Below, in pieces: positions 1 through 14,489 of a stretch of DNA of 39,741 nt. The DNA lies in contig JBCBHD010000001.1 in NCBI GenBank assembly GCA_038526115.1, positions 1 through 39,741 on the forward strand, given 5' to 3'. This stretch comes from Pseudomonadota bacterium. GTDB lineage: Bacteria > Pseudomonadota > Alphaproteobacteria > Sphingomonadales > Sphingomonadaceae. Both the position numbers and the translations under genes were made by a program. The notes below the pieces were generated by a model. The model ran no database searches, was not told the DNA's origin, and saw only the letters and a list, made by a program, of their open reading frames with translations. The number at the start of each line of letters is the position of its first letter. Positions within the stretch are counted from its first letter, which is position 1.

Positions 1-30
1 ATCGTTGTGAGTGGCCGCCAGATCAATCAT
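1..30 (-). CDS. 5' end of the next RiPP-cluster gene (MIDLAATHND...), truncated by the window edge
   Basis: ATG at 30-28 overlaps the TGA (29-27) of the upstream gene as ATGA, and the frame stays open to position 1. The product cannot be identified from 10 codons. Confidence 0.6.
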   Translation of the reverse strand, partial: MIDLAATHND

Positions 31-1721
31 GCTGTTTCACCCGCCCACACAATTGCGTAACGCTTCGCGATTGCGCCAAAATCGAAATCAATCAGCCGAG
101 GCAAAGTTTCGTCGAACGGCTCTGATCCGGTTAATTGAAGCCCCAGATCGTTCGCCGCAGTCTTGTCCATCGGGCCGAGCACATGGGATACGCAAGCGTC
201 TCCCAAAGCTTCCAACAGCGCAGCTTGGGGCGAACCGGAACAAACCTGAGCCAGAATACTCCCGGCAATCAGAACCTTGGCAACATGGACTGTTCCAGCA
301 GCATCAGAGCCCGCCAGCACTTGGATGTCTTTATCAACCAGGAGGCCAAGCAATTGATGCAGTTTGTGCAGCGTTGGGTCTGCAAAGCCGTCAGCAGGCA
401 CCGGCGAAAAGGAAACGGTAGCGTCATTGTAGCCAGCTGTTGCCTTCGCGTTCGCCGCAGCTGCCTGTGCAGTTGTACCTGACCCCAGAGCACCAGCTTT
501 GCCCTCCAGAGACGGAGTACTTGCGCAATAGGCCAAGAGCGCTTTCTGGATCGCCCGTTCGCGCGCTTCGTGGCCGGTAAAGCCCCACCCCCTCACTTCG
601 CCAAGCGGCGAGCGATCAAGGGCTGAGAATACACGCAACTTAACGACAGAAAACGGAACCTGCGGACAATCCTCATCGATTGCCTCGACGATACCGGTGA
701 TAGGGTGAAAGAGCGCCTCGTCTTCAAGGAAGGCATCAGCTTCCTCTTCATCGTTGCGAGGCGCTGCTGACCCTTCAGTGCTGGCTGCTCCAGGAATTGC
801 CTCACCGATTTCAGGCTGAGCAGAAAGGGTGAGTGGTTCAAATCCAGAGTTTCCATCAACAACATGGAGCCTGCCGCTCGCGAGTGGAACTGCCAATCCG
901 GCTTCACGGCCGAGCGCAGCAAAAGCAGTCGCAGCAGCCGCCAGTGCGATGCGCTGATCGGGGATCGGTGTTTGAGCGAGCGCACCTTCCAGTGGCCGGA
1001 TGGAGCTCCGCCAACGGTCCAGCGTGACCTGTGGTCTTTCGTTGAGAAGTCCGACCGCAAGCTGACCACAAATTCTCCCGACAAACCACGTTTCCGAGGA
1101 GCTTGGCAGATCGCCAATGTCCTCATTATTGCCAGCGATATGCACCGTCAGAGCATCCGTAGGGGCCGAGTGTAGCGCGTCAGAGATCGTCAATTCCGGA
1201 AACCGACTGCGAAGTTCTGAAAGCGCATCAGCGAAAGCTGGATCAATTAGCGCTTCTGCGGCAGCTCCACGTAGCGATATACTCTGTGCCGCGGTTTCGG
1301 CGAGAGCTCGGATCATGTAAACAACGCTCTTGGGATCGCCGCTCAATACAATATTGCGCGATTGCCATGATTGCATGACCGACCCAGGCTTATCGCAATT
1401 GTCGGCGACGAAGCTCCAGAGATTGGCAAAGCGCCGTTCCAGGCCCAATTCCCAAACCGGATCATCATCATTACGATGCCGCAGAAGCTCATTGTCATCG
1501 AGATCCTGAACCAGCTTCGCTGCAACCGGGCGCACAGGATCCGGGAATTTTCCGAGCAAGGTCGGCAGTGCGATACCCTGATCCAGTCCCTGGATGATCA
1601 CGCGTGCCAGTTCGTAAGCTTTCTTGCCTCGCAACATGACCGGAGCACCACCGCCGCGAAACACCGCTCCATCTTCGCTACGGCCGAAAAATACGCTCGA
1701 TTTTAGAGACAGTTGTGCCAT
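27..1721 (-). CDS. Ocin-ThiF-like thiazole-bacteriocin maturation protein (TbtF-like partner of the YcaO cyclodehydratase) with N-terminal RRE
   Basis: N-terminus LKSSVFFGRSEDGAVFRG...LRGKKAYEL...LDQG...LVQDLDDNELLR fits the RRE of Ocin-ThiF proteins. The C-terminal half has the family pattern LFHPITGI...QVPFSV...GFTGHEARERA...ALLAY. SD AAGGAG lies 7 nt before ATG 1721 (alternative start 1724). Confidence 0.75.
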   Translation of the reverse strand: MAQLSLKSSVFFGRSEDGAVFRGGGAPVMLRGKKAYELARVIIQGLDQGIALPTLLGKFPDPVRPVAAKLVQDLDDNELLRHRNDDDPVWELGLERRFANLWSFVADNCDKPGSVMQSWQSRNIVLSGDPKSVVYMIRALAETAAQSISLRGAAAEALIDPAFADALSELRSRFPELTISDALHSAPTDALTVHIAGNNEDIGDLPSSSETWFVGRICGQLAVGLLNERPQVTLDRWRSSIRPLEGALAQTPIPDQRIALAAAATAFAALGREAGLAVPLASGRLHVVDGNSGFEPLTLSAQPEIGEAIPGAASTEGSAAPRNDEEEADAFLEDEALFHPITGIVEAIDEDCPQVPFSVVKLRVFSALDRSPLGEVRGWGFTGHEARERAIQKALLAYCASTPSLEGKAGALGSGTTAQAAAANAKATAGYNDATVSFSPVPADGFADPTLHKLHQLLGLLVDKDIQVLAGSDAAGTVHVAKVLIAGSILAQVCSGSPQAALLEALGDACVSHVLGPMDKTAANDLGLQLTGSEPFDETLPRLIDFDFGAIAKRYAIVWAGETA

Positions 1722-1737
1722 CATCCAGCTCCTTTCT

Positions 1738-2844
1738 TTACGCCGGAGCCAGCGCATCTTCGCCCACTGAGCGAAGATGAGCGAGCGTGACGAGGTGACA
1801 CATGCCGAAACGTTCAGCGGGAGAAACTGAGACGACCGGCAAGATCGAATAGAATGCGTTGATCAGAACCCGGTAGGTCTGGAATTCGCGTGAGCTGAAG
1901 AACTCATGATCCATCGTTCCGTTGTCGAAGATTGTATCGAGTGTTTCGCCCGCTTCTATCGCGCGCTCCTCCACACCTGCCTGGGCGAATGCATCGCGGT
2001 GCTGCTCCTCGGCAACGTTTCCTCGGAATGCACCAGGATTGTAGTAGAACCAGCTATCGTCCTTCTCGATGGCGGAGACGATGTCGTCTTTCGTGTCAGC
2101 CATCACCTGCTTCCAAGCGACGAAAATCTGCTGGACCACAGGAGCAAACCGTGCCTCAACGGCATCGCCTGGGCGCCCATCCATCACATGCGTAAACAGA
2201 TGCTGCGAGCTTTGCGCGATGCGATCAAAGTTCGCCCGGACCGCGCCGGTTTTGTCGTAATTGGCGAAGAAGAAATCGGCATGCGCCTGGAGCGACATGT
2301 AGCCTCGCTCAATGCCGTGGGGCTCAAGCTGATCAGCCGTGTGCGCCAGCATCGCCGCCAGAGCCAACGTAGTTGCGGACTTGTTTTCCTGCTTGAGCTC
2401 GGCGAGGTCGAGCAGGATTGGGGCTACGCGATTGAAGAACGCAACATACGTTGGCTGTAAGGCTTCGTGTCCATCCACCAGACGTGGCGCACGATATTCG
2501 GCAATCTCGACAGTGTTGTCCTTGCGCATTGGCGTCAATTCTTCGGTCACACCTTCCAGGGCCGCGAGCTTGCGCGAATGAGCGAGGTGCTCTTCCTCGG
2601 TGAAGGGAGAAACAGACGGGTTCGCAGCGATCCATCGTTCGATAAGCGACTTTTCTTCGGTCAAATCGACCGGCTCATCACTGCCAACTGAAAGATCAAT
2701 ATGAGGGCCTTTGACCCAGCCAGATCGTATAAGGACAGTGGCTGATGGATACCTCGCCCTCAGTTGATCATAGGCATCTCTGACCGGCCCCGTGAGCAAG
2801 GATAGACGGTCTTTCGCGTGATAATTTATGCGCAAACAAGCCAT
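1738..2844 (-). CDS. Thiopeptide pyridine synthase ([4+2] cyclase, TbtD-like; Lant_dehydr_C fold)
   Basis: Blocks are colinear with TbtD-type enzymes as I recall them: RINYHA, GWVKGPHIDL, NPS...RKLAALEG...PMRKDNTV, SLQAHADFF, FQTYRVLINAFY...SPAERFGMCHLV. Length 368 aa; lies directly downstream of the LanB gene. Confidence 0.75.
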   Translation of the reverse strand: MACLRINYHAKDRLSLLTGPVRDAYDQLRARYPSATVLIRSGWVKGPHIDLSVGSDEPVDLTEEKSLIERWIAANPSVSPFTEEEHLAHSRKLAALEGVTEELTPMRKDNTVEIAEYRAPRLVDGHEALQPTYVAFFNRVAPILLDLAELKQENKSATTLALAAMLAHTADQLEPHGIERGYMSLQAHADFFFANYDKTGAVRANFDRIAQSSQHLFTHVMDGRPGDAVEARFAPVVQQIFVAWKQVMADTKDDIVSAIEKDDSWFYYNPGAFRGNVAEEQHRDAFAQAGVEERAIEAGETLDTIFDNGTMDHEFFSSREFQTYRVLINAFYSILPVVSVSPAERFGMCHLVTLAHLRSVGEDALAPA

Positions 2845-2850
2845 TGAAAA

Positions 2851-5568
2851 CTATCCCTCTTCTCTGGAAATTTCGAATTGGACCTCGCAGGCATGCGCCG
2901 CGCCATTCCATTCTTGACCACCTGTTCCAATCTCCGGCAAAACCTCTTGGAACAGCAGGGCACGCGGACGGCGACGCAAACGTCGGCGCAGACTGGCTAC
3001 CGTCATTGGCATGTCGAGCGAGAGGTAAGCTGGTTTGAAATCCGTAGTGTCGGCCATTGCGACTTCGTCATCATCGCCTGATCCGAAGAAGTCATCACGC
3101 AACGCAACGAGACGTACAAAGTAGTCCTTACGATCGCCAAGCCGAGCAAAGAACGCGTGCATCTGCTTGAAGTATTCGGCTTCATCGAGCTGCGGATCAG
3201 GAAGATCGCGGGCAGGCGAAAACCAACTGCGGCGCGAGATCACGCTTTCGCCAAAGCTTACGCGCGGAAGCAGAGTGAGTTCACTCGTATTCAGCAAACC
3301 GGCAAAAAGCAGGTCTTGCCAAAGATCAAGCACCAGACCCTGAAGGTTCATCCGGCCCAACACCTGATAAAGGTTGGGCAGAACCATCATGTTCAGGAAG
3401 CCGAAATACATCGCTGAAAGTTTGCCGCCTTGAGCGTCGTAGAAGGCAAGCCGGTCAAGTTCAGGATCGTAGCCGACCTCCATGGTCGAGACGCTCACCT
3501 TCTCCGTAGAACCGTAGTTGGCTCGGCGACCAGGGATCTCGAGCTCAGCATCAACGAAACGTGGGTGAATATTGGCGTTGAAGCCGAATACTCCCGGAAT
3601 TTCGACCGGCCTGCCGCTCCCAGCGAGGCGATCAAGATACGAGCGAACCTCGCCGATCTCATCGTCAGATTGGTGGCGCAGGAACCGCGACATCAGCATG
3701 GAGTGGCCGCTGTACCAGCGGTTCAGAACAAACCGCTTGCCAGTTGCGCCGCCATCATCGGTCTGCCCGATCACGGTGTAGGAAGTCGAACGTTTGCGAA
3801 CAACTTCAGGGATATACGCCAACATGCGATCGACAAAGGCATCGTCCAGGACAATGTCTTTCCCAGCTTCCATCCGGCGCTGGATCTCCGCGAAGAAGAT
3901 ACGCTTACCTTCAAGGAGCTTCGCAGCTGTCGGGCATATCTCAGCGAGTTGCTTCTCTTGCTCTTCGAGCGGAAGAACAGTCATGCGAGTCGCAATTTCC
4001 TGTGCTTCATCGGCAATGGATTCAACACAGTCGACAGCTACAACCCGCGCATCATCTCCATATCTTTGACGGAAGAGTGCCGCCGAAACCGCCTGTACGA
4101 TATGATTATAATCGAGCAGCGGAAGAAGATCGGCATACCGGTGCAGATCGTTAAGAGCGGTACCGACATAATCAGTCGAAACGGCTGTGGTTTCCCCCGA
4201 TATCTGACAGTCTTCATAGAACAGAGGCGATTTCGGATCGTTCGGGATCTCAGCGTTGATCGCGTTGCAAAGCTCGCCATAGGCAGCGTGGATACTTTTC
4301 GAAGCCTCGCCACGTTCGGTGTGACTGGCCGCCCCATAAGCCTCGGTTTCCGATACGAGCCGGTCAAGGATGGCCGCCGCATCCGGGATGCGCTGTGCCA
4401 GAACCTTCGAAAGATAGGCTGGAACATCTTCTTGTTCGAAGACCGGGATTGAAGGAACAATCAGTCCAACCCGCATCGCATTGGCGATATAGCCTGCAAA
4501 CTGGTTGGGATCGTCCGGGAAAGGCTCGCCTTTGAGAGCCGCGAAGAGTTCCTGTAGAGTTTGGCCTTGTTTTTCAGCCATTTTGAGGTGCTCTACCAAC
4601 GCAAAGAGACGCGGGTTGAGAGCCAGCCGTTGCTGGGGCTGATACACGCCCCAAGTACGACCACTTGAGCCGCCTTTGGCGTACATTTCCTTGAAATCGA
4701 TATGCCCATCAGCGGCTTCAGCGGTGGGATTGAGCATCAATGGATGGCTCTGACCCCAAAATGCGAGACTCCGGGCTAGAGTTGCCAGCACATGGTCCAG
4801 CGCACGACGGCTCACCTCTGACACACCGACTATCGGCAGCCCGTCGACCACTGGATGTTGATCGGTCTCGTCAGTCCATTGACCGACGCGAATAGGCGTG
4901 AAGAAGCTGAGCGGGCTGACTTTGACAGTAGCGCGGGTGAAGTAATTAAACAGCGCGCTGTCCAGGTTTCTTCCGCGCTTGCCGGTAAATTTCTTTGGAT
5001 TTGCAGCAGCAGCCTCAAGATCCGCAACCACCTTGGGGGCGCTGAAGGCAACGGCTTTCAGGAAATCGGGTTCTTTGCGACAGGCCTCGCGCAAAGCTTG
5101 GCTCAATTGCTCGTTGCTCGATGTGAAAATAGTCTCGAAAGCCTCGCGAGCATCGGTCAGACCTGTGATAGCGTTGTCCGCTGTTCGAACCGCTTTGGCC
5201 ACAGGTGCGAACTCATCGGCCACCCATCCGTCACAATCCAACTTGCTCGTCTTGCCATTAAACAGGTTTCGCTTTGCCTTGAGCAATTGGCGGCGCTTGT
5301 CCTGATCCAGTTCATCGATGCCAATCACAGGCTCCAGCAGATCGCAGGCGACCTGTGCCGCATCGCTCTGCAACACCTCAAGAGCTTGAATGGAGTCCAA
5401 CTGGTCGCGAGCACCTTTGCTGTTCAACGCCTTGGTCGTGTCGAAAGACAGCGCAGCAAGCCGAAGGACAATGTGCGGGTGGTGCAGCAATGCCTGTTCT
5501 GTTTTTGTTGAAGAAAGCTCTTCATCAGGACTTTCGTCACGGGCTTCTACAAGCGTGAAATTATCCAT
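2851..5568 (-). CDS. Split lantibiotic dehydratase, tRNA-Glu-dependent glutamylation domain (TbtB-like)
   Basis: LanB motifs LRLAAL, YFTRATVKVSPLSFF, FYED, FNANIHP, LPRV...ISRRSW, FKPAYL, FQEVLP and terminal CEVQFE are present. About 905 aa, ending without an elimination domain. GAGGAG lies 8 nt before ATG 5568 (alternatives 5574/5577). Confidence 0.88.
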   Translation of the reverse strand: MDNFTLVEARDESPDEELSSTKTEQALLHHPHIVLRLAALSFDTTKALNSKGARDQLDSIQALEVLQSDAAQVACDLLEPVIGIDELDQDKRRQLLKAKRNLFNGKTSKLDCDGWVADEFAPVAKAVRTADNAITGLTDAREAFETIFTSSNEQLSQALREACRKEPDFLKAVAFSAPKVVADLEAAAANPKKFTGKRGRNLDSALFNYFTRATVKVSPLSFFTPIRVGQWTDETDQHPVVDGLPIVGVSEVSRRALDHVLATLARSLAFWGQSHPLMLNPTAEAADGHIDFKEMYAKGGSSGRTWGVYQPQQRLALNPRLFALVEHLKMAEKQGQTLQELFAALKGEPFPDDPNQFAGYIANAMRVGLIVPSIPVFEQEDVPAYLSKVLAQRIPDAAAILDRLVSETEAYGAASHTERGEASKSIHAAYGELCNAINAEIPNDPKSPLFYEDCQISGETTAVSTDYVGTALNDLHRYADLLPLLDYNHIVQAVSAALFRQRYGDDARVVAVDCVESIADEAQEIATRMTVLPLEEQEKQLAEICPTAAKLLEGKRIFFAEIQRRMEAGKDIVLDDAFVDRMLAYIPEVVRKRSTSYTVIGQTDDGGATGKRFVLNRWYSGHSMLMSRFLRHQSDDEIGEVRSYLDRLAGSGRPVEIPGVFGFNANIHPRFVDAELEIPGRRANYGSTEKVSVSTMEVGYDPELDRLAFYDAQGGKLSAMYFGFLNMMVLPNLYQVLGRMNLQGLVLDLWQDLLFAGLLNTSELTLLPRVSFGESVISRRSWFSPARDLPDPQLDEAEYFKQMHAFFARLGDRKDYFVRLVALRDDFFGSGDDDEVAMADTTDFKPAYLSLDMPMTVASLRRRLRRRPRALLFQEVLPEIGTGGQEWNGAAHACEVQFEISREEG

Positions 5569-5580
5569 CGTCATCACTCC

Positions 5581-6303
5581 TCACATCCAGGACAGGAAAC
5601 GACGGATCACGAGCAGGGAAATACCAGCCCAGATTAGCGAACCGACGACATTGATAAGAGCATCGGGTGTGAAGAGAGTGCCTTCAAAACCGGCAACCAA
5701 TACCCGGAGTGCGTGATAGCTGGGGGAGAAAACGTCGACGTATTCTGCCCAATCCAGCCATGGTCCCATGTCCGGCCTGGCGTCTGAGAAGAAGACCAGA
5801 ACATAGCTCAGCACTGAAGCCAGCGCGAACATTGATGCACTGCGATTGACGAAACAGGCCGGTATCAATCCAAACAGGAAAACTGCACCAGCTGCGACAG
5901 GGATCGCAATCAGTCCTTGAAGATAATTGACCTGCGGCAAAGCTCCGGTCATCGCGACTGCCAGTGCTGACAAAAGTGACAATCCGATCACCACCAGCAC
6001 GAAACCCCGGATCGCGTTCGATAGCGCAATTCCGACGGGGCTTATCTGGGTAACCAATATTCGCTTGTAAAAGCCGGCCTCTCTGTACGTCACAACTTGC
6101 GTCGCGAGCGTGAATGTCGCCACAAAGACCATGATCAGACCGATCATCAGCGGCAAGTAAAATGCCGCCGCCTCAGATCCGCCAGACACTATAGCCGAAC
6201 CATAGATCATGTTGGGCGCAAGGAAGGTGAAAAAGACCGCGATAAAGGTCTTGAAGAACAGTTCGAGCTCGAACCTCGAAAACGCGAGAAGTGACTGGAC
6301 CAT
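5581..6303 (-). CDS. ABC-2 type exporter permease
   Basis: About 6 hydrophobic segments and the ABC-2 signature YREAGFYKRILVT. Its start overlaps the ATPase stop (TAATG). Confidence 0.85.
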   Translation of the reverse strand: MVQSLLAFSRFELELFFKTFIAVFFTFLAPNMIYGSAIVSGGSEAAAFYLPLMIGLIMVFVATFTLATQVVTYREAGFYKRILVTQISPVGIALSNAIRGFVLVVIGLSLLSALAVAMTGALPQVNYLQGLIAIPVAAGAVFLFGLIPACFVNRSASMFALASVLSYVLVFFSDARPDMGPWLDWAEYVDVFSPSYHALRVLVAGFEGTLFTPDALINVVGSLIWAGISLLVIRRFLSWM

Positions 6304-7061
6304 TAAACTGCCTCCACCAGACGACTGTAGGCACCCTGCAACGTGGAAATTCCGTCGGGCATGCCCTCCAAAAGTGAGGGGACGCTGCCGTCAGCAACAA
6401 TTTGTCCCTGGGCGATAACGATGACGCGGCTGCACAGCCGTTCGACTTCGTCCATGAAATGACTGGTGAGCAGCAGAGTACGATCGCCATCGCGCTGCCA
6501 GTTCTCGACAAACGTCCAGAGCTCTTCGCGGGCGATTGGATCGAGACCGGTGCTGGGTTCATCCAGAATGAGAATTTCCGGATCATTGATCAGTGCGAAG
6601 GCGAGCAAGGCGCGTTGCTTCAAGCCTCCGGAGAGTTCGGAGAGCCGCTTTTTCAGGTGGTCGGTCAAGCCAAGGCGTTCGACCAGGTCTCCATAGTCGC
6701 GAGGCACCCCGTAAAGATCGGAGTAAAGCTTCATGTAGCGACCTACGCGAACATGCGGGAACAAGGCAGCTTCTTGCAGCTGTACGCCGATCGTCGAGAC
6801 AATTTTCGGGTTGCTCGGCACATCGTGGCCAAAGATGCTGACGCTGCCACTGGTTGCTTTGCGCAGGTTGACAATGATCTCGACTAGAGATGTTTTACCG
6901 GCGCCATTCTGACCGATAACTGCAGCCGCTTCACCGCGAGGAATAGAAAATGAAACATTGTCAAGCGCGGTCAGCTTGCCGTATTTTTTCGTGAGCGAAC
7001 GCACGGTTATCGCATCACTTCGCCGACCAATACCAAACGAACTAGGATCCTGTTGTATCAT
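6303..7061 (-). CDS. ABC exporter ATP-binding protein
   Basis: Walker A GQNGAGKT, signature LSGG, Walker B ILILDEP, H-loop TSH. GAGGA lies 8 nt before ATG 7061. Confidence 0.92.
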   Translation of the reverse strand: MIQQDPSSFGIGRRSDAITVRSLTKKYGKLTALDNVSFSIPRGEAAAVIGQNGAGKTSLVEIIVNLRKATSGSVSIFGHDVPSNPKIVSTIGVQLQEAALFPHVRVGRYMKLYSDLYGVPRDYGDLVERLGLTDHLKKRLSELSGGLKQRALLAFALINDPEILILDEPSTGLDPIAREELWTFVENWQRDGDRTLLLTSHFMDEVERLCSRVIVIAQGQIVADGSVPSLLEGMPDGISTLQGAYSRLVEAV

Positions 7062-7155
7062 GATCGGTGTCCTCATCTTGCGACGACAAAGCATCGCGTT
7101 GCCAAAAAAGTCGCTCTTGATGCGAAGTGCCTCTCCGCATCAGCTTGTCGGCAAA

Positions 7156-7450
7156 CCAATATAAGTAACTGACAATTATGTGATTTCTTGATCACGTAAA
7201 TTGTCTGACAGTTGTCTCTTCAGTTACATCCAGTCGTCTGCTCAACAGATCATTGGAATTTGGGCGTAAACAGGCCTACATTCGGTCTAAGTCGGTTCGA
7301 GTCGTAGGCTTCGGACCCAAATTATTGCCAAGCTGGCGAAACTGCGCCGGACGCTTGCGTCCACCAGACTTCACGCCCGACGCAGTTGGCTTGAGCAATT
7401 CCGGACCGGACGGGACGTGTCGCTTGCGATACGCGCCTGTCTGGTTCGGA
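7156..7450 (+). ncRNA. Candidate structured RNA: four abutting hairpins, antisense to the RiPP operon
   Basis: Hand-paired stems: 7165-7172/7220-7227, 7171-7177/7199-7205, 7257-7264/7316-7323, 7272-7279/7304-7311, 7340-7346/7381-7387, 7400-7414/7436-7450. Non-Watson-Crick pairs in the stems are G-U on the + strand, and there are two G(CUUG)C loops. Expression is not shown. Confidence 0.45.
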
Positions 7451-7467
7451 CCCTTAGCTCATCGGCT

Positions 7468-7665
7468 TCATTTCAGCTCGAACACACAGCACGATGTCGA
7501 ACCGCAGCATGAGCCGGAAGCACAAGAGCTGATGGCACTCGACGCGCCGGTTTCAGGCATTGCCATCGCGTCACCAAGAGCGATGACTTCGAGATCGGCA
7601 AAGTCCGACAGCTCGAATGATTCGTCGAACTGCGACATGTCGAATTGAATTGCTCCTTTAGTCAT
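7468..7665 (-). CDS. Thiopeptide-type precursor peptide 3 (65 aa; core SSAISSCASGSCCGSTSCC-VFELK)
   Basis: Acidic leader ending LEVIALGDAMAMPETGA, Ser/Cys-rich C-terminus, SD TAAGGA; paralog of the two upstream genes. Confidence 0.9.
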   Translation of the reverse strand: MTKGAIQFDMSQFDESFELSDFADLEVIALGDAMAMPETGASSAISSCASGSCCGSTSCCVFELK

Positions 7666-7675
7666 TGCTCAGTCC

Positions 7676-7867
7676 TTACTTGAAGACGCAGCAGGACGTT
7701 GAAGCGCAGCACGAGCAAGAATTGCACGAGCTGATGCCGCTCGACGCGCCAGTTTCAGGCATCGCCATTGCATCGCCCAGGGCGACGACTTCGAGATCGG
7801 CAAAGTCAGACATTTCCGAAGCAAGATCGAAAGTATCGACGTCGAAGTTAAGAGCTTCTGCTTTCAT
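7676..7867 (-). CDS. Thiopeptide-type precursor peptide 2 (63 aa; core SSGISSCNSCSCCASTSCC-VFK)
   Basis: Start MKAEALNFD at 7867 with TAAGGA 8 nt upstream. A 48-residue block is identical to precursor 1. Confidence 0.9.
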   Translation of the reverse strand: MKAEALNFDVDTFDLASEMSDFADLEVVALGDAMAMPETGASSGISSCNSCSCCASTSCCVFK

Positions 7868-7878
7868 GTTCTTCATCC

Positions 7879-8076
7879 TTACTTGAGATTGATGATGCAG
7901 CATGAAGTTGATGCGCAGCATGAGCAGGAGTTGCACGAGCTGATACCGCTGGAAGCGCCAGTTTCTGGCATTGCCATCGCATCACCCAGAGCAACAACTT
8001 CAAGATCAGCGAAGTCGCTCATTTCAGAAGCAAGGTCGAACGAATCAACATCAAAGCTCAGTTCTTCAGTCCTCAT
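7879..8076 (-). CDS. Thiopeptide-type precursor peptide 1 (65 aa; core SSGISSCNSCSCCASTSCC-IINLK)
   Basis: Start MRTEELSFD at 8076 with GAGGG 7 nt upstream. The leader ends in PETGA|S, like the (L/M)PExGA|S junction of thiopeptide precursors. Confidence 0.9.
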   Translation of the reverse strand: MRTEELSFDVDSFDLASEMSDFADLEVVALGDAMAMPETGASSGISSCNSCSCCASTSCCIINLK

Positions 8077-8142
8077 AGTATTACCCTCATAATTAAACCC
8101 CACCTTGGGGCCTTTACGGTCTGGCTACTGCCGGACTTCATT

Positions 8143-8171
8143 AAAATGAGTAACTATATTTTCTCTGTCAA
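8143..8171 (-). promoter_or_regulatory. Candidate sigma70 promoter of the RiPP operon
   Basis: Perfect -35 TTGACA (8171-8166), a 17-nt spacer, and a weak -10 CATTTT (8148-8143) that keeps -11A and -7T. Lies about 65 nt upstream of precursor 1. Confidence 0.45.
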
Positions 8172-8229
8172 TAGAAAAAATGAGGTTTTTTCAGATACTT
8201 ATTTCGTAAATGCAAATACTCCCGTCTTC

Positions 8230-8293
8230 TTCACCAAATTATGTTTGATGAATACTGACAGGAATAGATCGTCGCCAAATCAATGTTTGGCGA
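8230..8293. promoter_or_regulatory. Two related imperfect palindromes, candidate operators
   Basis: TTCACCAAA-TTATG-TTTGATGAA (8230-8252) and TCGCCAAA-TCAATG-TTTGGCGA (8272-8293). Confidence 0.35.
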
Positions 8294-9073
8294 TTAATTT
8301 ATGCTGCGCGCAAAAGTGCGCTGGCTAGTCAGCCAGTGTCGCAAACATCTTGTGAAGAAGAATTCGGGATTGCGCCTCTCCAAAAAAGGAAGCCAATCCC
8401 GTCCAACAGACCCTCGATTTGAATACGGCTATCACTCGAAAATTCGCAAGTCAACGAATAGTTCGAAATAATGTTACCCTAAATAAGCATACGAACTGGT
8501 TTCTCCAACGTTTGGTCGAACTTTTGGGTTATGAATAAGTGCAGATCAAAATTTTCGGGGAATGTATCCTCATACACCCCAGGCTAGATCTAACGTAACT
8601 CGGCTCTACCAAGCTTTTTACATTCAAGTTCATTTATACTTATCAGTATTATTTAAGATACGCCGTACTATTCATATGACACGTTATGAAGTCCATTCGG
8701 TTTGACACATTGCGTGCGGCCCCATCGAACTGCAGTCGAGTAGACCGAGTTGTCGGGAAGCATGCAAACTGCGGAAAAAATTGATGATTTTCATTCTTTC
8801 CGCTGGCTCGCATTGCGGTGATCATGATCGCACCAGTCCGCGCGCACTTGAAATGGTTCGCCGTTTCACAAGCAGGTTTTTTGCGATTGCGGCAGCGCAG
8901 TGTGATCTGGACTGAAAATGCTGCGGCGCACTGTTCACACAATAAGTGTCAAGCTGGAGTAAGAGTCGAAACCTCTAGAGCGATCACTTCCAGCAGCCGC
9001 ACACCCCATCTGTTTGCTTCGATTGAGGTACAATGCACTTCCACCCAATCCGAGAATCTGCGACCATGTTGTG

Positions 9074-9787
9074 ATGCATCTTTTCGAGCTTCTCGTAGTC
9101 GCACATGTCTTAGCCGGCACAACCGGTCTTCTCGCTTTCTGGATCCCAATCGTGACACGAAAGGGGGGCCGGTCGCATCGCACTTGGGGCCGAGTCGCGT
9201 GCTTTGGTTTTATGATCGCGGGCGCTCTCGCCGTCGCCATGGCGTTATTGTCATTATACGGGCCAGAACACCGGATTCCTTCGTTCACCGATCGGGAGCT
9301 ATTCGCAGGCCTGTTTGGCTGGATGATGCTGTATCTGGGTCTGCTTACCATTGGTTTCGCCGATTACGGCTTGGCAGTGGTCAAGCACTCGCGTGATCGG
9401 CAGAGCCTCAGGCGGACGCGATATCAGCTAGTGATAGCGTCGGTTGTCGTGTCCGCCGCTTGGTGTGGTGTTTACGGCTACTTGATCGGCGAAGTGCTGA
9501 TGATCGCTGTCGCCTTGCTCGGACTTGTCGCGATGACCTTGCAACAAGTCTTTATCTGGCGCGCTACAGTGTCACGCATAGCCTATGTCGGTGAGCATTT
9601 CCGTGCGCTTCTGGGCATGGGAATCTCTGCGTACACAGCGTTCATGGCGGTCGGACTGATTCGCTGGATACCTGAAGAGGTGTTCAATCCCCTGATTTGG
9701 GCTGGTCCAAGCATCGTTGGCGTGGGCCTGATCATCTATTTCACGCTTCAGGCGAAACAGAAGCAAAAGGCCCGCGTGCGCAGCTGA
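9074..9787 (+). CDS. Integral membrane protein (DUF2306-like)
   Basis: Multiple TM segments; HVLAG...RKGGRSHRTWGR and EHFRALLG...AYTAF patterns. Start placed at MHLFELL. Confidence 0.65.
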   Translation: MHLFELLVVAHVLAGTTGLLAFWIPIVTRKGGRSHRTWGRVACFGFMIAGALAVAMALLSLYGPEHRIPSFTDRELFAGLFGWMMLYLGLLTIGFADYGLAVVKHSRDRQSLRRTRYQLVIASVVVSAAWCGVYGYLIGEVLMIAVALLGLVAMTLQQVFIWRATVSRIAYVGEHFRALLGMGISAYTAFMAVGLIRWIPEEVFNPLIWAGPSIVGVGLIIYFTLQAKQKQKARVRS

Positions 9788-11361: not shown

Positions 11362-12009
11362 TCAGTCTTCGCCGGCAATTCCTTTCGCGAGGAGTGTGTT
11401 AACTGCGGTTGCGACCTCCTCCGGCGAAAGCGGAGCTGCTTCGTCTTCCCAAACTACGTAACGCAGGCCAACAAAGACGTTCATTCCCATCAAGGCCCAG
11501 GCTTCGAGTTCGCCGAGATCCTCGCGAAATTCCCCGCTCTTGCCACCAGCTTCGAGTCGCGCTGCGATCCGGCCGGCGATAGTTTCGTAGTGACGCCGGT
11601 AACTTGCCGGATCGACGAATTCCGCTTCGTCGATGATGCGATAAATTTCACGATGTTCCTTCGCGAATTGCAAGAAGGCCGTCAGCGCAGCTTGCTCGAT
11701 CTTCAGCGCACCCATGTCCTTTGAAAGCGCGGCGCGCGCACTGCTCTGGACCGTCGCGCTCATATCGGCGACCAACGCCCGGAACAATGCATCCTTACTG
11801 TCAAAGTAGGTGTAAAAACTGCCCAAAGCGACGCCTGCGCGGCGAGTGATCGAACTGACAGACGCTTCGTGAAAGCCCTTTTCACCAAATTCGATAGCGG
11901 AGGCATCAAGCAACTTGCGCAAGGTTTTTCGGCCTCGCTCAGTGCGCGGCACCTTGCTGTCTGTGACCCCCGGCGAACTTTGTGCCGGGCTACCGGCTAT
12001 CTGGTCCAT
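11362..12009 (-). CDS. TetR/AcrR family transcriptional regulator
   Basis: HTH FGEKGFHEASVSSITRRAGVALGSFYTYFDSKDALF; purine-rich SD before ATG 12009. Confidence 0.9.
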   Translation of the reverse strand: MDQIAGSPAQSSPGVTDSKVPRTERGRKTLRKLLDASAIEFGEKGFHEASVSSITRRAGVALGSFYTYFDSKDALFRALVADMSATVQSSARAALSKDMGALKIEQAALTAFLQFAKEHREIYRIIDEAEFVDPASYRRHYETIAGRIAARLEAGGKSGEFREDLGELEAWALMGMNVFVGLRYVVWEDEAAPLSPEEVATAVNTLLAKGIAGED

Positions 12010-12065
12010 TCCCCTACTCCTCGACCTGTGCGTAGGCGGCCCAGCGGTACGAGACAAGTCTAAAC

Positions 12066-12088
12066 TTGAAAGTTGGTTCAACTTTCAA
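12066..12088. promoter_or_regulatory. Perfect inverted repeat, probable TetR operator
   Basis: TTGAAAGTTG-GTT-CAACTTTCAA between the divergent tetR and TBDR genes. Confidence 0.7.
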
Positions 12089-12128
12089 TATTGAGATTGG
12101 TACAAGAGGGTTTGGAGAGGAACCAGCC

Positions 12129-14489
12129 ATGAACACTGTACTTCGCACCCAAGCGATACTGCTTGCCGGCTGCGCCAGTCTTGCCACCGTATCGACTCAG
12201 GCTTTTGCTCAGGATGCAACCGGCAGTGCGACGATCGGTGACAACGAGTTCGTAGATGAGGACACAGGTCCGGGAATCATTGTCACCGCACGCAGGCGTG
12301 AAGAGGCACTTATCGATGTGCCGCTATCAGTCACGGCAATCACGGGCGATTCGCTTGAGCAGCAGGGTGTTCAGTCCCTTACCGAGGTTGCCCAGCAGGT
12401 GCCGAACATCACGCTGGAGGTGAGCCGCGGGACCAACACCACGCTCACTGCCTTTATCCGCGGCGTTGGCCAGCAAGACCCAGTGGCTGGCTTTGAAGCA
12501 GGCGTCGGTCTCTATATTGATGATGTCTACCTGAACCGGCCGCAAGCAGCTGTTCTAGACATATATGATGTTGAGCGGATCGAGGTTCTGCGCGGCCCAC
12601 AAGGCACATTGTATGGTCGCAACACGATCGGTGGCGCGATCAAATATGTCACTGCGGAATTGCCTGACGAAACCAGTGTCAGCATTCGCGGCACCTACGG
12701 CTCTTTCGATCAGGCCGATCTGATCATTAGCGGATCGACCCCGATAACCGACAGCCTCAAGATTGGGGCCAGCGGCGCTCGGCTTTCACGCGGAGGTTTC
12801 GGTGACAACCTCAATCTCGGCACCGAAAACTACAACAAGGATGTGTGGGCAGCACGCGGAACTATAGAGTTCGACAACGGGCCGGTTTTCGTCCGTTTGT
12901 CCGGCGACTACGTGCTTGATGAAAGCGAAGCGCGACAAGGCGGTCGGTTGATCACCAGCCTGTTTACCGGCGCGCCGGTGCTGGACAATGTGTTTGACAC
13001 CCGTGCAGGCCTCGACGTCGTCGATCAGGAAGTCGAAGCCTATGGTGGCGCGCTGAATATCGCGATCGAACTGACGGACACGCTGACGCTCAAATCAATC
13101 ACCGGCTATCGTGAAGACAAATCGACCACGCCGATCGATTTTGACAGTCTGCCCGCAGCGGATCTTGATGTGCCAGCGATCTACGAAAACGATCAATTCA
13201 GTCAGGAGCTTCAGCTGCTGTATGAAGGCGACCGGCTTTCCGGCGTCTTGGGCTTCTACTATCTGGACGCCAACGCCTTCACCGCATTCGATGTTGCACT
13301 GTTCAACACTGGCGATCTGATCAACCTGCCCGGTCTTAACGCACAAACTCTGGGCGATGTTGGAACAAAGACATGGTCTGTTTTCGGCGACTTCACTTTT
13401 GATGTAACAGACACCCTGAGCATTTCGGTAGGCGGGCGCTACACCAATGATGAGCGCACCAGCCGAGTTTTGCGCACCACCTTTATTGGCGGGTTCTCGG
13501 ACCTCTTTGTGCCTGGCAGCGCAGCGATCCCAATCGCAACCACCAGCGACTTCGAAGGCAGCGAGACCTTTGAAGACTTCAACCCACGTGCTTCGATCAG
13601 CTGGCAACCAACGCGCGATCACAACATCTACTTCACCTATTCCCAAGGCTTCAAAGGTGGCGGCTTCGACCCGCGGGGACAGACGACCGCCGCACCAGAC
13701 CTCGACGGTGATGGTGATGTGGATTTCGATGACCAGTTCGAATTCCTGCGGTTCGCTCCGGAAACGGTGGACAGCTATGAATTGGGGTGGAAAGCTTCGC
13801 TGCTCGACAATCGCCTGAATATCAGTCTGGCCGCATTTCTTGGCTCATATGACGATGTTCAGATCCCCGGATCGGTCGGGCTCGACACCAATGGCGATGG
13901 AGTGAATGACAGTTTTATCGGAATCACGTCGAACGCGGCCTCTGCCGACGTGAACGGTTTGGAGTTCGAAGGTAATGCACTGGTAGGGCGCGATTTCTGG
14001 GGCGATGGCAGCCGCTTGAACGTCAATTGGTCGCTGGGCGTGCTGGATGCGAGTTTCAACGAATTCATCGATGCGTTCGGTGTTGATGTCGCGGACCAGC
14101 GAGTGTTCCAGAACACGCCTGACGTAACAGCCCATATGGGATTCGTGCTGGGCGTGCCTGCAGCGGACGGCATGATCGATTTCATCGGCACGGCTGCCTT
14201 GCGCGGCGATGCGAGCCAATTCGAAACGCCCAATCCGTTCCTTGATCAGGATAGTTTTGTGTTGGTCGACGCCAGCATCGTCTACACCAGTGACAGCGGG
14301 CTTTTCTCAATCGGCGGTCACGTGAAGAACCTGTTCGACAAGGAATACATTGTCGCCGGGTATAATTTCGTCGCCGGCGGCACGCCTCCGGGCACTCCAT
14401 TTGTATCGACGCTTGGCCTCGAAGGCACGCTCACGGGGTTCTATGGCGACCCAAGGCGGTTCTTTGTGACTGCCGAAGTGAATTTCTAA
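12129..14489 (+). CDS. TonB-dependent receptor
   Basis: Signal peptide ending AFAQ, TonB-box region IIVTARRREE, plug motif DVERIEVLRGPQGTLYGRNTIGGAI, C-terminal F. SD GAGAGGA. Confidence 0.95.
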   Translation: MNTVLRTQAILLAGCASLATVSTQAFAQDATGSATIGDNEFVDEDTGPGIIVTARRREEALIDVPLSVTAITGDSLEQQGVQSLTEVAQQVPNITLEVSRGTNTTLTAFIRGVGQQDPVAGFEAGVGLYIDDVYLNRPQAAVLDIYDVERIEVLRGPQGTLYGRNTIGGAIKYVTAELPDETSVSIRGTYGSFDQADLIISGSTPITDSLKIGASGARLSRGGFGDNLNLGTENYNKDVWAARGTIEFDNGPVFVRLSGDYVLDESEARQGGRLITSLFTGAPVLDNVFDTRAGLDVVDQEVEAYGGALNIAIELTDTLTLKSITGYREDKSTTPIDFDSLPAADLDVPAIYENDQFSQELQLLYEGDRLSGVLGFYYLDANAFTAFDVALFNTGDLINLPGLNAQTLGDVGTKTWSVFGDFTFDVTDTLSISVGGRYTNDERTSRVLRTTFIGGFSDLFVPGSAAIPIATTSDFEGSETFEDFNPRASISWQPTRDHNIYFTYSQGFKGGGFDPRGQTTAAPDLDGDGDVDFDDQFEFLRFAPETVDSYELGWKASLLDNRLNISLAAFLGSYDDVQIPGSVGLDTNGDGVNDSFIGITSNAASADVNGLEFEGNALVGRDFWGDGSRLNVNWSLGVLDASFNEFIDAFGVDVADQRVFQNTPDVTAHMGFVLGVPAADGMIDFIGTAALRGDASQFETPNPFLDQDSFVLVDASIVYTSDSGLFSIGGHVKNLFDKEYIVAGYNFVAGGTPPGTPFVSTLGLEGTLTGFYGDPRRFFVTAEVNF

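What the first reader, a model, noticed from the sequence alone, without database searches (positions are those of the whole stretch)
1..8076. Thiopeptide-type biosynthetic operon in an alphaproteobacterial (Sphingomonadales-like) chromosome
Seen: one co-oriented, tightly coupled operon with three Ser/Cys-rich precursors, an ABC exporter, a split LanB glutamylase, a TbtD-like protein and an Ocin-ThiF/RRE protein, continuing off the window. Established: the combination of split LanB, pyridine synthase, F-protein and YcaO defines thiopeptides, and characterised producers are Actinomycetota and Bacillota. Inference: this Gram-negative host encodes a thiopeptide whose core I cannot match to any I know (thiocillin, thiostrepton, thiomuracin, GE2270, berninamycin, lactazole, cyclothiazomycin).
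Basis: partly seen in the sequence, partly recalled or inferred. Interest (0 to 1): 0.92.

Follow-up and report, generated by a model that had tools for sequence, protein, structure and literature searches.

The report
Thioamide thiopeptide cluster in marine Erythrobacter
A marine Gram-negative bacterium carries a gene set predicted to make a ring-shaped, sulfur-rich antibiotic-type peptide (a thiopeptide, likely with an added thioamide), whose 19-residue core is almost letter-for-letter the same as in gut, mouth and soil bacteria of other phyla; the family was already listed in genome surveys, but no product of it turned up in the papers searched.

Summary
In detail: three precursors, ABC exporter, LanB glutamylation domain, pyridine-synthase homolog and probable F protein on one strand of an Erythrobacter MAG contig end. 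An assembly contig touching both pieces and full synteny with cultured E. crassostreae WH158 support the join. The 368-aa protein folds like PbtD/TbtD and keeps the aromatising Tyr, though it scores under the NCBIfam cut-off. So: very likely a thioamide-bearing thiopeptide cluster. It is less new than claimed: the same 19-residue core was already in the RODEO2/RiPPER thiopeptide lists (Enterococcus, Clostridium, Actinomyces, the gammaproteobacterium Aquimonas), and Sphingomonas wittichii was listed with another core. What is notable: a core nearly invariant across phyla (43 of 54 homologs within one change), no product found in the literature searched, a Gram-negative branch that adds thioamidation and MacAB-type export, relatives with LanB-pyridine-synthase fusions, and a possible 47-membered ring (known natural range 26-35). 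Testable in a cultured strain.

The parts
7879..8076 (-). Precursor 1 (65 aa; 41-aa leader, core SSGISSCNSCSCCASTSCCIINLK)
   Evidence: PF19409 58.7 bits, NF033400 52.2 bits, both over cut-off; RBS
7676..7867 (-). Precursor 2 (63 aa; same 19-residue core, 3-residue tail)
   Evidence: PF19409 58.7 bits, NF033400 52.9 bits
7468..7665 (-). Precursor 3 (65 aa; variant core with Ala3, Ala8, Gly10, Gly14)
   Evidence: PF19409 53.3 bits, NF033400 48.6 bits
7062..7467 (-). Structured intergenic region with several long hairpins; possible mRNA-stabilising or attenuating element (inferred)
   Evidence: fold z = -4.72, 0 of 100 shuffles as stable; no Rfam match at E <= 0.1
6303..7061 (-). ABC transporter ATPase (ORF extends to 7094; 7061 has the RBS)
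   Evidence: PF00005 E 7e-28; 54% to E. crassostreae cluster ATPase
5581..6303 (-). ABC-2 type permease
   Evidence: PF12698 E 2.8e-4, below cut-off; 48% to E. crassostreae cluster permease
2851..5574 (-). Split LanB glutamylation domain (TbtB-like)
   Evidence: PF04738 E 1.4e-16; PDB 6ec7 E 2.5e-19
1738..2844 (-). Pyridine synthase ([4+2] aza-cyclase) homolog, 368 aa, Tyr332 = PbtD Y293 / TbtD Y319
   Evidence: NF045556 161.6 bits, below cut-off 325; PDB hits only PbtD/TbtD; AF2 pLDDT 89.7, top 10 Foldseek rows PbtD/TbtD; residue table
27..1724 (-). Probable Ocin-ThiF-like F protein with N-terminal RRE (ORF extends to 1757)
   Evidence: no Pfam/NCBIfam hit; best PDB profile hit PbtF RRE 8t19, E 0.096; ESM Atlas 0.95 to a thiazole-bacteriocin maturation cluster; weak leader-binding prediction
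1..30 (-). First 10 codons of the next gene, inferred to be the fused C-D azoline-forming YcaO whose last 340 codons end contig C143
   Evidence: ATG overlaps F stop; E. crassostreae has a 630-aa YcaO at this position; a 6,919-nt assembly contig extends 859 nt past window position 1 and a record of the same length and depth shares 30 nt with the end of C143

Best explanation
This is the front half of a biosynthetic gene cluster, in a marine Erythrobacter genome, predicted to make a pyridine-closed thiopeptide that likely also carries one or more backbone thioamides. Shown by sequence: gene content and order. Inferred from characterised homologs: (1) the F protein binds the 41-residue leader; the fused YcaO and SagB-like oxidase turn Cys (and some Ser/Thr) into azoles; (2) the LanB N-terminal domain glutamylates remaining Ser/Thr with Glu-tRNA and the stand-alone elimination domain makes dehydroalanines; (3) the JAB protease cuts the ThiS domain off the ThiS-rhodanese-MoeB fusion after its Gly-Gly, MoeB/rhodanese make ThiS-thiocarboxylate, TfuA releases the sulfur and the second YcaO installs a thioamide, site unknown (non-Ser/Cys residues such as Gly3/Ile4 are candidates); (4) the pyridine synthase joins Dha1 to an internal Dha and expels the leader as its amide. 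Two sites fit the lactazole-type S-x-S-C motif: Ser11 (29-atom ring) and Ser17 (47-atom ring); I put them about even, with a slight lean to Ser17 because precursor 3 has Gly10 and conservation ends at Cys19; (5) an ABC-2 exporter and a MacAB-type adaptor/ATPase/permease set would move the product across both membranes; a RiPP radical SAM C-methyltransferase on contig C186 may add methyl groups. Most likely role: antibacterial competition; the mode of action is open because the core lacks the Asn3-type EF-Tu motif and no target-copy or rRNA-methylase resistance gene was seen among the cluster genes read.
For: Precursor HMMs over cut-off. C143 (L007) holds TIGR03604 YcaO 237.7 bits over cut-off, SagB-like protein (TIGR03605 E 5e-4; Atlas structure TM 0.78 to a SagB/ThcOx cluster), Prok-JAB, ThiS+rhodanese+ThiF, YcaO closest to TIGR03266 and to PDB MJ1094, TfuA (PF07812 E 2.7e-43; PDB 6xp8), and TIGR03891 elimination domain. 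Each is single-copy in the genome. Join: (same-length, same-depth record; depth about 14.5-16 over both pieces in run X1) and identical gene order in E. crassostreae WH158 and same gene set in one locus of complete genome G048. Pyridine synthase: 12 signature positions shared by 9 of 9 family rows and 17-19 of 19 rows that pass the NF045556 cut-off, while 5 of 5 elimination domains differ at N110, N329, Y332, R345, C349; Y332 aligns with the Tyr mutated in PDB 8ejz/8ejy, shown catalytic for TbtD (PMC12018205). Quick tree: the 5 elimination domains form their own clade (100), window family elsewhere. ThiS ends in Gly-Gly as a free protein in L018 and is internal, next to a JAB gene, in the window genome, E. 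crassostreae and G048. TfuA/ThiS role: PMC13063428; JAB release of fused ThiS proposed in PMC1779556. Leader-F prediction: score 0.35 vs best control 0.01, weak support; mark reached by 116 of 157 solved and 2 of 215 mismatched pairs, but only 18 solved ones at <= 0.60; contacts agree >= 64%, partner pLDDT 50; may reflect likeness to solved PbtF.
Against: No product, transcript or protein data. NF045556 score is half the cut-off (161.6 vs 325). The His of the TbtD/PbtD His-Trp motif is Gly in all 25 family rows and His in 18 of 19 cut-off rows; its importance is recalled, not tested. The tree is the quick version and places the elimination clade on a long branch inside the TbtD-like rows, so rooting is unresolved. 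F and SagB identities rest on sub-threshold hits. The C1-C143 join is not a single aligned contig: the shared 30-mer lies in inverted orientation, and X1 may be the source of the MAG. The C143-C186 link rests on synteny only. Which residue is thioamidated, and whether at all, is not shown.
Confidence: 0.72

Rival explanations
1. Linear azole/dehydroalanine peptide (goadsporin- or coryneazolisin-like): the 368-aa protein no longer cyclises, and a host protease removes the leader.
For: Sub-cut-off NF045556 score; His-to-Gly change in the HW motif; very Ser/Cys-rich core with variable tail, like coryneazolisins, which lack a [4+2] enzyme (PMC4603692).
Against: A separate elimination domain exists, so the 368-aa protein is not needed for dehydration; it keeps 12 pyridine-synthase signature residues including the catalytic Tyr in all family rows; fold matches PbtD/TbtD first; no leader peptidase or acetyltransferase among the cluster genes read.
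Confidence: 0.08
2. A thiopeptide without thioamide: the TfuA-YcaO and sulfur relay act on something else or are passengers.
For: Firmicute members have the same core, yet only one Firmicute TfuA-YcaO cluster was found in a global survey (PMC8120280), so the core is probably made without thioamide there; two other thiopeptide-like clusters in the family (G236, G773) have no TfuA.
Against: The module sits between SagB and the elimination gene, translationally coupled, and is kept in all 4 sufficiently long family loci read (window genome, E. crassostreae, G048, L017) plus L018; 7 of 14 pyridine-synthase hits on contigs >= 10 kb share a contig with, or an identical longest-contig length to, a close TfuA hit (indirect). 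Thioamide thiopeptides exist (saalfelduracin, thiopeptin, Sch 18640).
Confidence: 0.1
3. Different ring topology: an internal Ser (5 or 6) is the two-electron partner, as recalled for thiostrepton-type peptides, giving a 26- to 35-atom ring with residues 1-5 either kept as an N-terminal arm (the thioamide site) or lost with the leader.
For: Ser6-Cys7 resembles the usual Ser-Cys start; Ser6-Ser17 would give 32 atoms, inside the known range (PMC7210931); TsrL is a structural hit.
Against: Leader ends in a PETGA junction directly before Ser1, as in listed thiopeptide and pyritide precursors; residues 1-7 are near-invariant while leaders diverge to 5-9 of 25 identical in Gram-positive members; TsrL ranks below PbtD/TbtD; no quinaldic/indolic acid genes or peptidase seen.
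Confidence: 0.07
4. Binning or assembly artefact: the cluster comes from another (e.g. Gram-positive) organism.
For: MAG is 83.7% complete, 4.6% contaminated, 381 contigs; cluster is rare among relatives.
Against: C1 carries the cluster and Erythrobacter housekeeping genes on one contig; an independent assembly record spans 6062 to beyond 9500; GC and GC3 of cluster genes (0.53-0.58; 0.53-0.63) are close to host genes; a cultured Erythrobacter has the same cluster.
Confidence: 0.03

Closest known systems
Orphan 'thiazolyl_B' thiopeptide clusters in the RODEO2/RiPPER lists (E. faecalis, E. ureasiticus, C. cellulovorans 743B, A. oris, E. rectale, G. orientalis, Aquimonas voraii)
   Same: Same 19-residue core (identical to E. 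faecalis/E. ureasiticus rows), often several precursor copies; in the six Gram-positive species the precursor lies about 4.1-4.6 kb from the [4+2] gene, as here.
   Different: Alphaproteobacterial host; PETGA-type leader rather than SETAA-type; TfuA-YcaO, JAB and ThiS-rhodanese-MoeB in the operon (their absence in Firmicute members is inferred from PMC8120280, not tested); MacAB-type second exporter. No product found for any member in the searches run.
Thiomuracin / GE2270 (TbtA-G, PbtA-G)
   Same: Split LanB, F-dependent fused YcaO, SagB-type oxidase, pyridine synthase with the same catalytic Tyr; Cys10-Ser11-Cys12 would give the same 29-atom ring.
   Different: About 20% identity of the cyclase; below the NF045556 cut-off; Gly/Ala, not Asn, at core position 3; second candidate site Ser17; thioamide module.
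Saalfelduracin, thiopeptin, Sch 18640 (thioamide thiopeptides)
   Same: TfuA-YcaO pair inside a thiopeptide cluster.
   Different: Those come from Actinomycetota and (recalled) are thiostrepton-type bicycles with quinaldic acid; here no such genes, a PbtD/TbtD-like cyclase, and a cluster-encoded sulfur relay with JAB and a ThiS-rhodanese-MoeB fusion.
Lactazole
   Same: Leader type, non-Cys residue at position 2, Ser-azole-Ser-Cys motif at the four-electron site.
   Different: Far higher Cys/Ser content, two candidate motifs, extra tailoring and export genes.
PDTC / thioquinolobactin sulfur relay (PdtFGH-type JAB + E1-rhodanese + ThiS)
   Same: Same three activities in one operon (PMC1779556).
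   Different: ThiS is fused N-terminally to rhodanese-MoeB, and the acceptor is predicted to be a RiPP backbone via TfuA-YcaO, not an acyl-adenylate.

Membership tests
Thiopeptide BGC | Ser/Cys-rich precursor with thiopeptide leader and Ser1 | tested here: met
   3 of 3 over PF19409, NF033400, TIGR03892 cut-offs
Thiopeptide BGC | [4+2] cycloaddition enzyme distinct from the elimination domain | tested here: met
   PDB sequence and fold hits PbtD/TbtD; 12 signature residues incl. catalytic Tyr; reciprocal HMM scores vs the C143 elimination protein
Thiopeptide BGC | Split LanB (glutamylation + elimination) | tested here: met
   PF04738 in window; PF14028 125.5 bits and TIGR03891 93.8 bits on C143
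Thiopeptide BGC | Azoline-forming YcaO | tested here: met
   TIGR03604 237.7 bits on the 340-aa C143 fragment; full-length ortholog in E. crassostreae also has TIGR03882
Thiopeptide BGC | Ocin-ThiF-like F protein with RRE | tested here: inconclusive
   no HMM hit; PbtF RRE best PDB hit at E 0.096; Atlas 0.95; weak complex support; own fold without alignment unusable, pLDDT 39.9
Thiopeptide BGC | FMN-dependent azoline dehydrogenase | tested here: inconclusive
   TIGR03605 19.6 bits vs cut-off 78.4; Atlas structure TM 0.78 to SagB/ThcOx cluster
Thiopeptide BGC | Product has a macrocycle closed by a six-membered N-heterocycle | not testable with these tools
   needs chemistry
TbtD/PbtD equivalog NF045556 | Score >= 325 bits | tested here: not met
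   161.6 bits; E. crassostreae ortholog 171.5. Filed as a divergent pyridine-synthase clade, not as this equivalog.
TfuA-YcaO thioamidated RiPP | Adjacent TfuA and thioamide-type YcaO | tested here: met
   C143 2642-3886 and 1236-2645, overlapping stop/start; PF07812, TIGR03266 best, PDB MJ1094 and 6xp8
TfuA-YcaO thioamidated RiPP | Thioamide in the product | not testable with these tools
   needs MS
Goadsporin/coryneazolisin-type linear azole peptide | Absence of a [4+2] enzyme | tested here: not met
   a [4+2] homolog is present
JAB + ThiS + E1-rhodanese sulfur relay | JAB with metal-binding motif, ThiS with Gly-Gly, E1 and rhodanese in one operon | tested here: met
   PF14464, PF02597, PF00581, PF00899; HSH...SxxD motif and internal GG

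The most novel reading that the evidence does not exclude
Marine Erythrobacter make the first Gram-negative thiopeptide to be characterised: a thioamide-bearing pyridine macrocycle of 47 atoms (Ser1-Ser17), larger than any natural thiopeptide ring (26-35), fed by its own JAB-activated ThiS sulfur relay; its core is held invariant across at least four phyla because it hits a conserved target different from the L11/23S and EF-Tu sites, with the Gram-positive members making the same scaffold without thioamide.
Probability: 0.25. Interest if true: 0.82.

Novelty: new variant of a known kind. Interest (0 to 1): 0.58.

Why it matters
Thiopeptides are described as produced predominantly by Actinobacteria (PMC7136475), and the searches run found no characterised Gram-negative producer. 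Here a complete, syntenic cluster sits in a cultured Gram-negative strain (E. crassostreae WH158), which makes the question directly testable. A core that barely changes between marine Erythrobacter, soil metagenomes and human-associated Enterococcus, Actinomyces and Eubacterium implies strong selection on one structure and function that nobody appears to have described. The pair 'same core with and without TfuA-YcaO' would be a natural experiment on what a thioamide does. Enzymes from a Gram-negative host may also ease thiopeptide expression in E. coli, where a 96-cluster refactoring effort got no thiopeptide product (PMC9576775). Relatives with LanB-pyridine-synthase fusions would be mis-annotated as class I lanthipeptide dehydratases.

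Tried and rejected
No exact overlap between C1 and any other contig end. Single-protein scan of genome contigs found nothing; the alignment scan found 1 locus; metagenome scan 3 loci. Precursor not found in the plasmid collection. Rarity: pyridine-synthase match in 2 of 300 other family genomes; NF045556 in 1 of 100 genus genomes (G773, a different cluster) and 1 of 400 class genomes (20.7 bits, not pursued beyond); PF19409 in 0 of 400 phylum genomes: not found in those searched, not absent. Pfam nitroreductase search of the genome missed the SagB-like gene. Single-sequence fold of the F protein was unusable. One alignment call failed on a wrong frame. Promoter/terminator scan of 7000-9100 gave no more than shuffles. 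No Rfam match. No RNA holder listed. Joints and adapter-like loose ends in the laid contigs were treated as library artefacts, not as biological inversions. Core motifs were found in 0 main texts and not in the one Malit supplement file held as text, whose logos are pictures and whose tables were not held. Schwalen 2018, Liu 2021 and Donia 2014 were not held; they, and subscription journals, may say more about this family. The careful tree did not finish; only the quick tree is used, 57 selected rows. Rejected: reading the 368-aa protein as a second elimination domain; Gram-positive contamination.

Full report
Observation. The window is the first 39,741 bases of contig C1 of a 3.05-Mb MAG (381 contigs, 83.7% complete, 4.6% contaminated). 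Bases 1-8076 hold, on the minus strand, three 63-65-aa precursors, an ABC ATPase, an ABC-2 permease, a 907-aa LanB glutamylation domain, a 368-aa protein and a 565-aa protein, and the first ten codons of a further gene. All three precursors pass PF19409, NF033400 and TIGR03892 and have 41-residue leaders. Such Cys/Ser-rich stretches are rare in this genome (27 of 3,808,753 windows, 7 of them these cores). The host is Erythrobacter: 2 of 8 window housekeeping proteins looked up share 90% clusters with named Erythrobacter records, the flank matches 100 of 100 genus genomes searched, and the holders are four marine metagenome runs of one study.

The missing half. Searching the genome for YcaO and PF14028 pointed to one contig, C143 (8,148 nt). 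On one strand it encodes the last 340 residues of a TIGR03604 YcaO, a SagB-like protein, a JAB protease, a ThiS-rhodanese-MoeB fusion, a second YcaO closest to methanogen thioamide-forming YcaOs, TfuA, a stand-alone elimination domain and the start of a membrane-fusion-like gene. There is no exact overlap with C1, but three lines support the join. (a) Erythrobacter crassostreae WH158 has the identical order precursor-ABC-permease-LanB(N)-cyclase-F-YcaO(630 aa)-SagB-JAB-ThiS/Rhd/MoeB-YcaO-TfuA-elimination at 29-59% identity, followed by adaptor, ATPase and two permeases of MacAB type; complete genome G048 has the same gene set in one locus. (b) In run X1 a 6,919-nt record of depth 16 covers window 1-6060 and extends 859 nt to the left; a record of the same length and depth shares 30 nt with the end of C143. 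The 30-mer is inverted; my hand reading is that a short inverted repeat produced a chimeric branch that broke the assembly, and that about 0.84 kb, the N-terminal part of a ~630-aa YcaO, is missing (inference). (c) Depth is about 14.5-16 on both pieces. X1 may be the MAG's own source. Contig C186 starts with the end of one MacB-type permease and a second one (42% to the E. crassostreae cluster permease) and then a convergent TIGR03975 RiPP radical SAM C-methyltransferase (624.6 bits); metagenome locus L017 has such an enzyme inside its cluster, E. crassostreae has none over cut-off. This link is by synteny only.

Is the 368-aa protein a pyridine synthase? It scores 161.6 bits on NF045556 (cut-off 325) and 23.9 on PF14028, while the C143 elimination protein scores 38.6 and 125.5. 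Its only PDB sequence hits are PbtD and TbtD; an AlphaFold model (pLDDT 89.7) has PbtD/TbtD as the top ten Foldseek rows, then TsrL, then LanBs. Tyr332, invariant in 25 of 25 aligned family rows, aligns with the Tyr changed in the PbtD Y293F and Y293A structures and with TbtD Y319, whose mutants stall before aromatisation (PMC12018205, passage). Twelve signature positions are shared by 9 of 9 family rows and 17-19 of 19 rows that pass the cut-off, and five of them differ in 5 of 5 elimination domains. Against: the His of the TbtD/PbtD His-Trp motif is Gly in the family, and the quick tree, while separating the elimination clade (100) from the window family, cannot root the set. The F label is weaker: no HMM hit, PbtF RRE as best PDB profile hit at E 0.096, ESM Atlas neighbours at 0.95-0.96 including a thiazole-bacteriocin maturation cluster, and weak support for leader binding (0.35 vs best control 0.01; see Best explanation).

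The core. Of 58 precursor hits, 54 are not the window's own; 18 are identical to precursor 1 over the first 19 core residues, 25 differ at one, 5 at two, 4 at three or four, 1 has an insertion and 1 is truncated; tails after Cys19 vary from 3 to 15 residues. Named rows include Actinomyces oris, Lentilactobacillus diolivorans, Enterococcus faecalis, a Vulcanimicrobiaceae MAG and E. crassostreae; the three Gram-positive rows share 16-18 core residues but only 5-9 of the last 25 leader residues with the window. Lactazole needs Ser1 and a Ser-Ser-Ser-Cys motif (PMC7210931, passages); here Ser9-Cys10-Ser11-Cys12 and Ser15-Thr16-Ser17-Cys18 both fit, giving 29 or 47 ring atoms (formula calibrated on lactazole Ser12 = 32). 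Position 10 is Ser in 7 rows and Gly in precursor 3, whereas 15-17 are unchanged in all in-register rows, which leans to Ser17; known natural rings are 26-35 atoms, which leans to Ser11. Unresolved.

Sulfur relay. The ThiS domain ends in Gly-Gly inside the fusion in the window genome, E. crassostreae and G048, each with an adjacent JAB gene; in L018 ThiS is free and ends at Gly-Gly, in L017 free with a short extension. TfuA-type YcaOs use thiocarboxylated ThiS (PMC13063428, passage) and JAB release of fused ThiS was proposed from comparative genomics (PMC1779556, passages). ThiS and ThiF genes near TfuA clusters are known (PMC8120280 supplement parts 3-4; PMC9576775); the legends of that survey's thiopeptide figure list no JAB or ThiS. 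The closest named TfuA homologs are all Gram-negative (Lysobacter silvisoli, Bowmanella dokdonensis, Paucibacter sp. APW11, Aquimonas voraii, Glaciecola sp., E. crassostreae, Teredinibacter waterburyi among the 120 listed of 4,123).

Prior knowledge. The RiPPER supplement (PMC6511847; rows seen through searches, file cut when stored) reproduces the RODEO2 thiopeptide list and holds this core family in six Gram-positive species and Aquimonas voraii, a different thiopeptide precursor in Sphingomonas wittichii and a related one in Lysobacter sp. cf310. The C. cellulovorans cluster was noted as a putative thiopeptide in 2014 (PMC4289311, passages). So neither a Gram-negative nor a Sphingomonadales thiopeptide cluster is new as a prediction. 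I found no product of this family and no characterised Gram-negative producer in paper searches; the library lacks most subscription journals, and Schwalen 2018 itself was not held. Other papers seen as passages only: PMC7136475, PMC7369419, PMC10676384, PMC9247985, PMC4603692, PMC8549736, PMC7327761; PMC8120280 also section 13. Statements on thiostrepton-type topology and on the His-Trp motif's role are recalled.

Distribution. The cluster is sporadic: 2 of 300 family genomes, 1 of 100 genus genomes (another type), 0 of 400 phylum genomes for the precursor, while the closest genus relative G773 keeps the right-hand flank with a different neighbour. This fits horizontal spread; no donor is claimed. 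A profile search found 514 representatives at E <= 0.001, among the best 150 nine proteins of 1,263-1,299 aa in which LanB(N) is fused to the cyclase; G048 has the same fusion. Pfam reads them as full LanB, but the two scanned score 188-200 bits on NF045556 and the four aligned keep the catalytic Tyr.

Verdict. A real, probably intact thiopeptide cluster with a thioamidation module in a marine Erythrobacter, belonging to an already listed orphan family. New variant of a known kind; interest 0.58, because the family is cross-phylum invariant, chemically undescribed as far as searched, possibly has an unusually large ring, and can be tested in a cultured strain.

Noticed in passing
L012:1385-5140 (-) (G048); P0237, P0239, P0240, P0241, P0243, P0245, P0250, P0253, P0255: Natural fusions of the LanB glutamylation domain to the pyridine synthase (1,250-1,300 aa) that Pfam reads as full-length class I LanB; the C-terminal part keeps the pyridine-synthase Tyr, with Lys for Arg345.
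   Followed up: partly
L034:1445-3328 (-) (G000 contig C186): RiPP radical SAM C-methyltransferase (TIGR03975, 624.6 bits) convergent on a MacB-type permease that matches the tail of the E. crassostreae cluster; probably the far end of this cluster.
   Followed up: partly
window 7062-7467 (-): Strongly structured intergenic RNA (z -4.72) with three long hairpins, two capped by GCAA-type loops, between precursors and enzymes; no Rfam match.
   Followed up: partly
L029:785-10993 (G773, same genus): A second, unrelated thiopeptide-like cluster with a short Cys/Ser core and a degenerate [4+2] gene that lacks the GPH and His188 motifs; no TfuA in that genome.
   Followed up: partly
L013/L014 (G236, same family): A third thiopeptide-like cluster with a different core and acidic tail, intact-looking cyclase (NF045556 118.9 bits) and no TfuA.
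   Followed up: partly
L017:5463-16557: Metagenome cluster of the same family rearranged, with free ThiS, two radical SAM enzymes (648 and 780 aa) and at least two precursor copies.
   Followed up: partly
window 8100-9000: AT-rich (44% GC) non-coding stretch upstream of the precursors with no regulator gene; the E. crassostreae cluster also has AT-rich DNA around its precursor.
   Followed up: no
L007:1236-2645 (-): TfuA is 469 aa: the TfuA domain plus a ~250-residue helical C-terminal extension conserved in a large, mostly Gram-negative clade.
   Followed up: no
L033:6417-8637 and 11746-13353: Downstream of the E. crassostreae cluster lie genes that look like phage tail tube and sheath proteins and a TIR-like protein (by eye, not scanned).
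   Followed up: no
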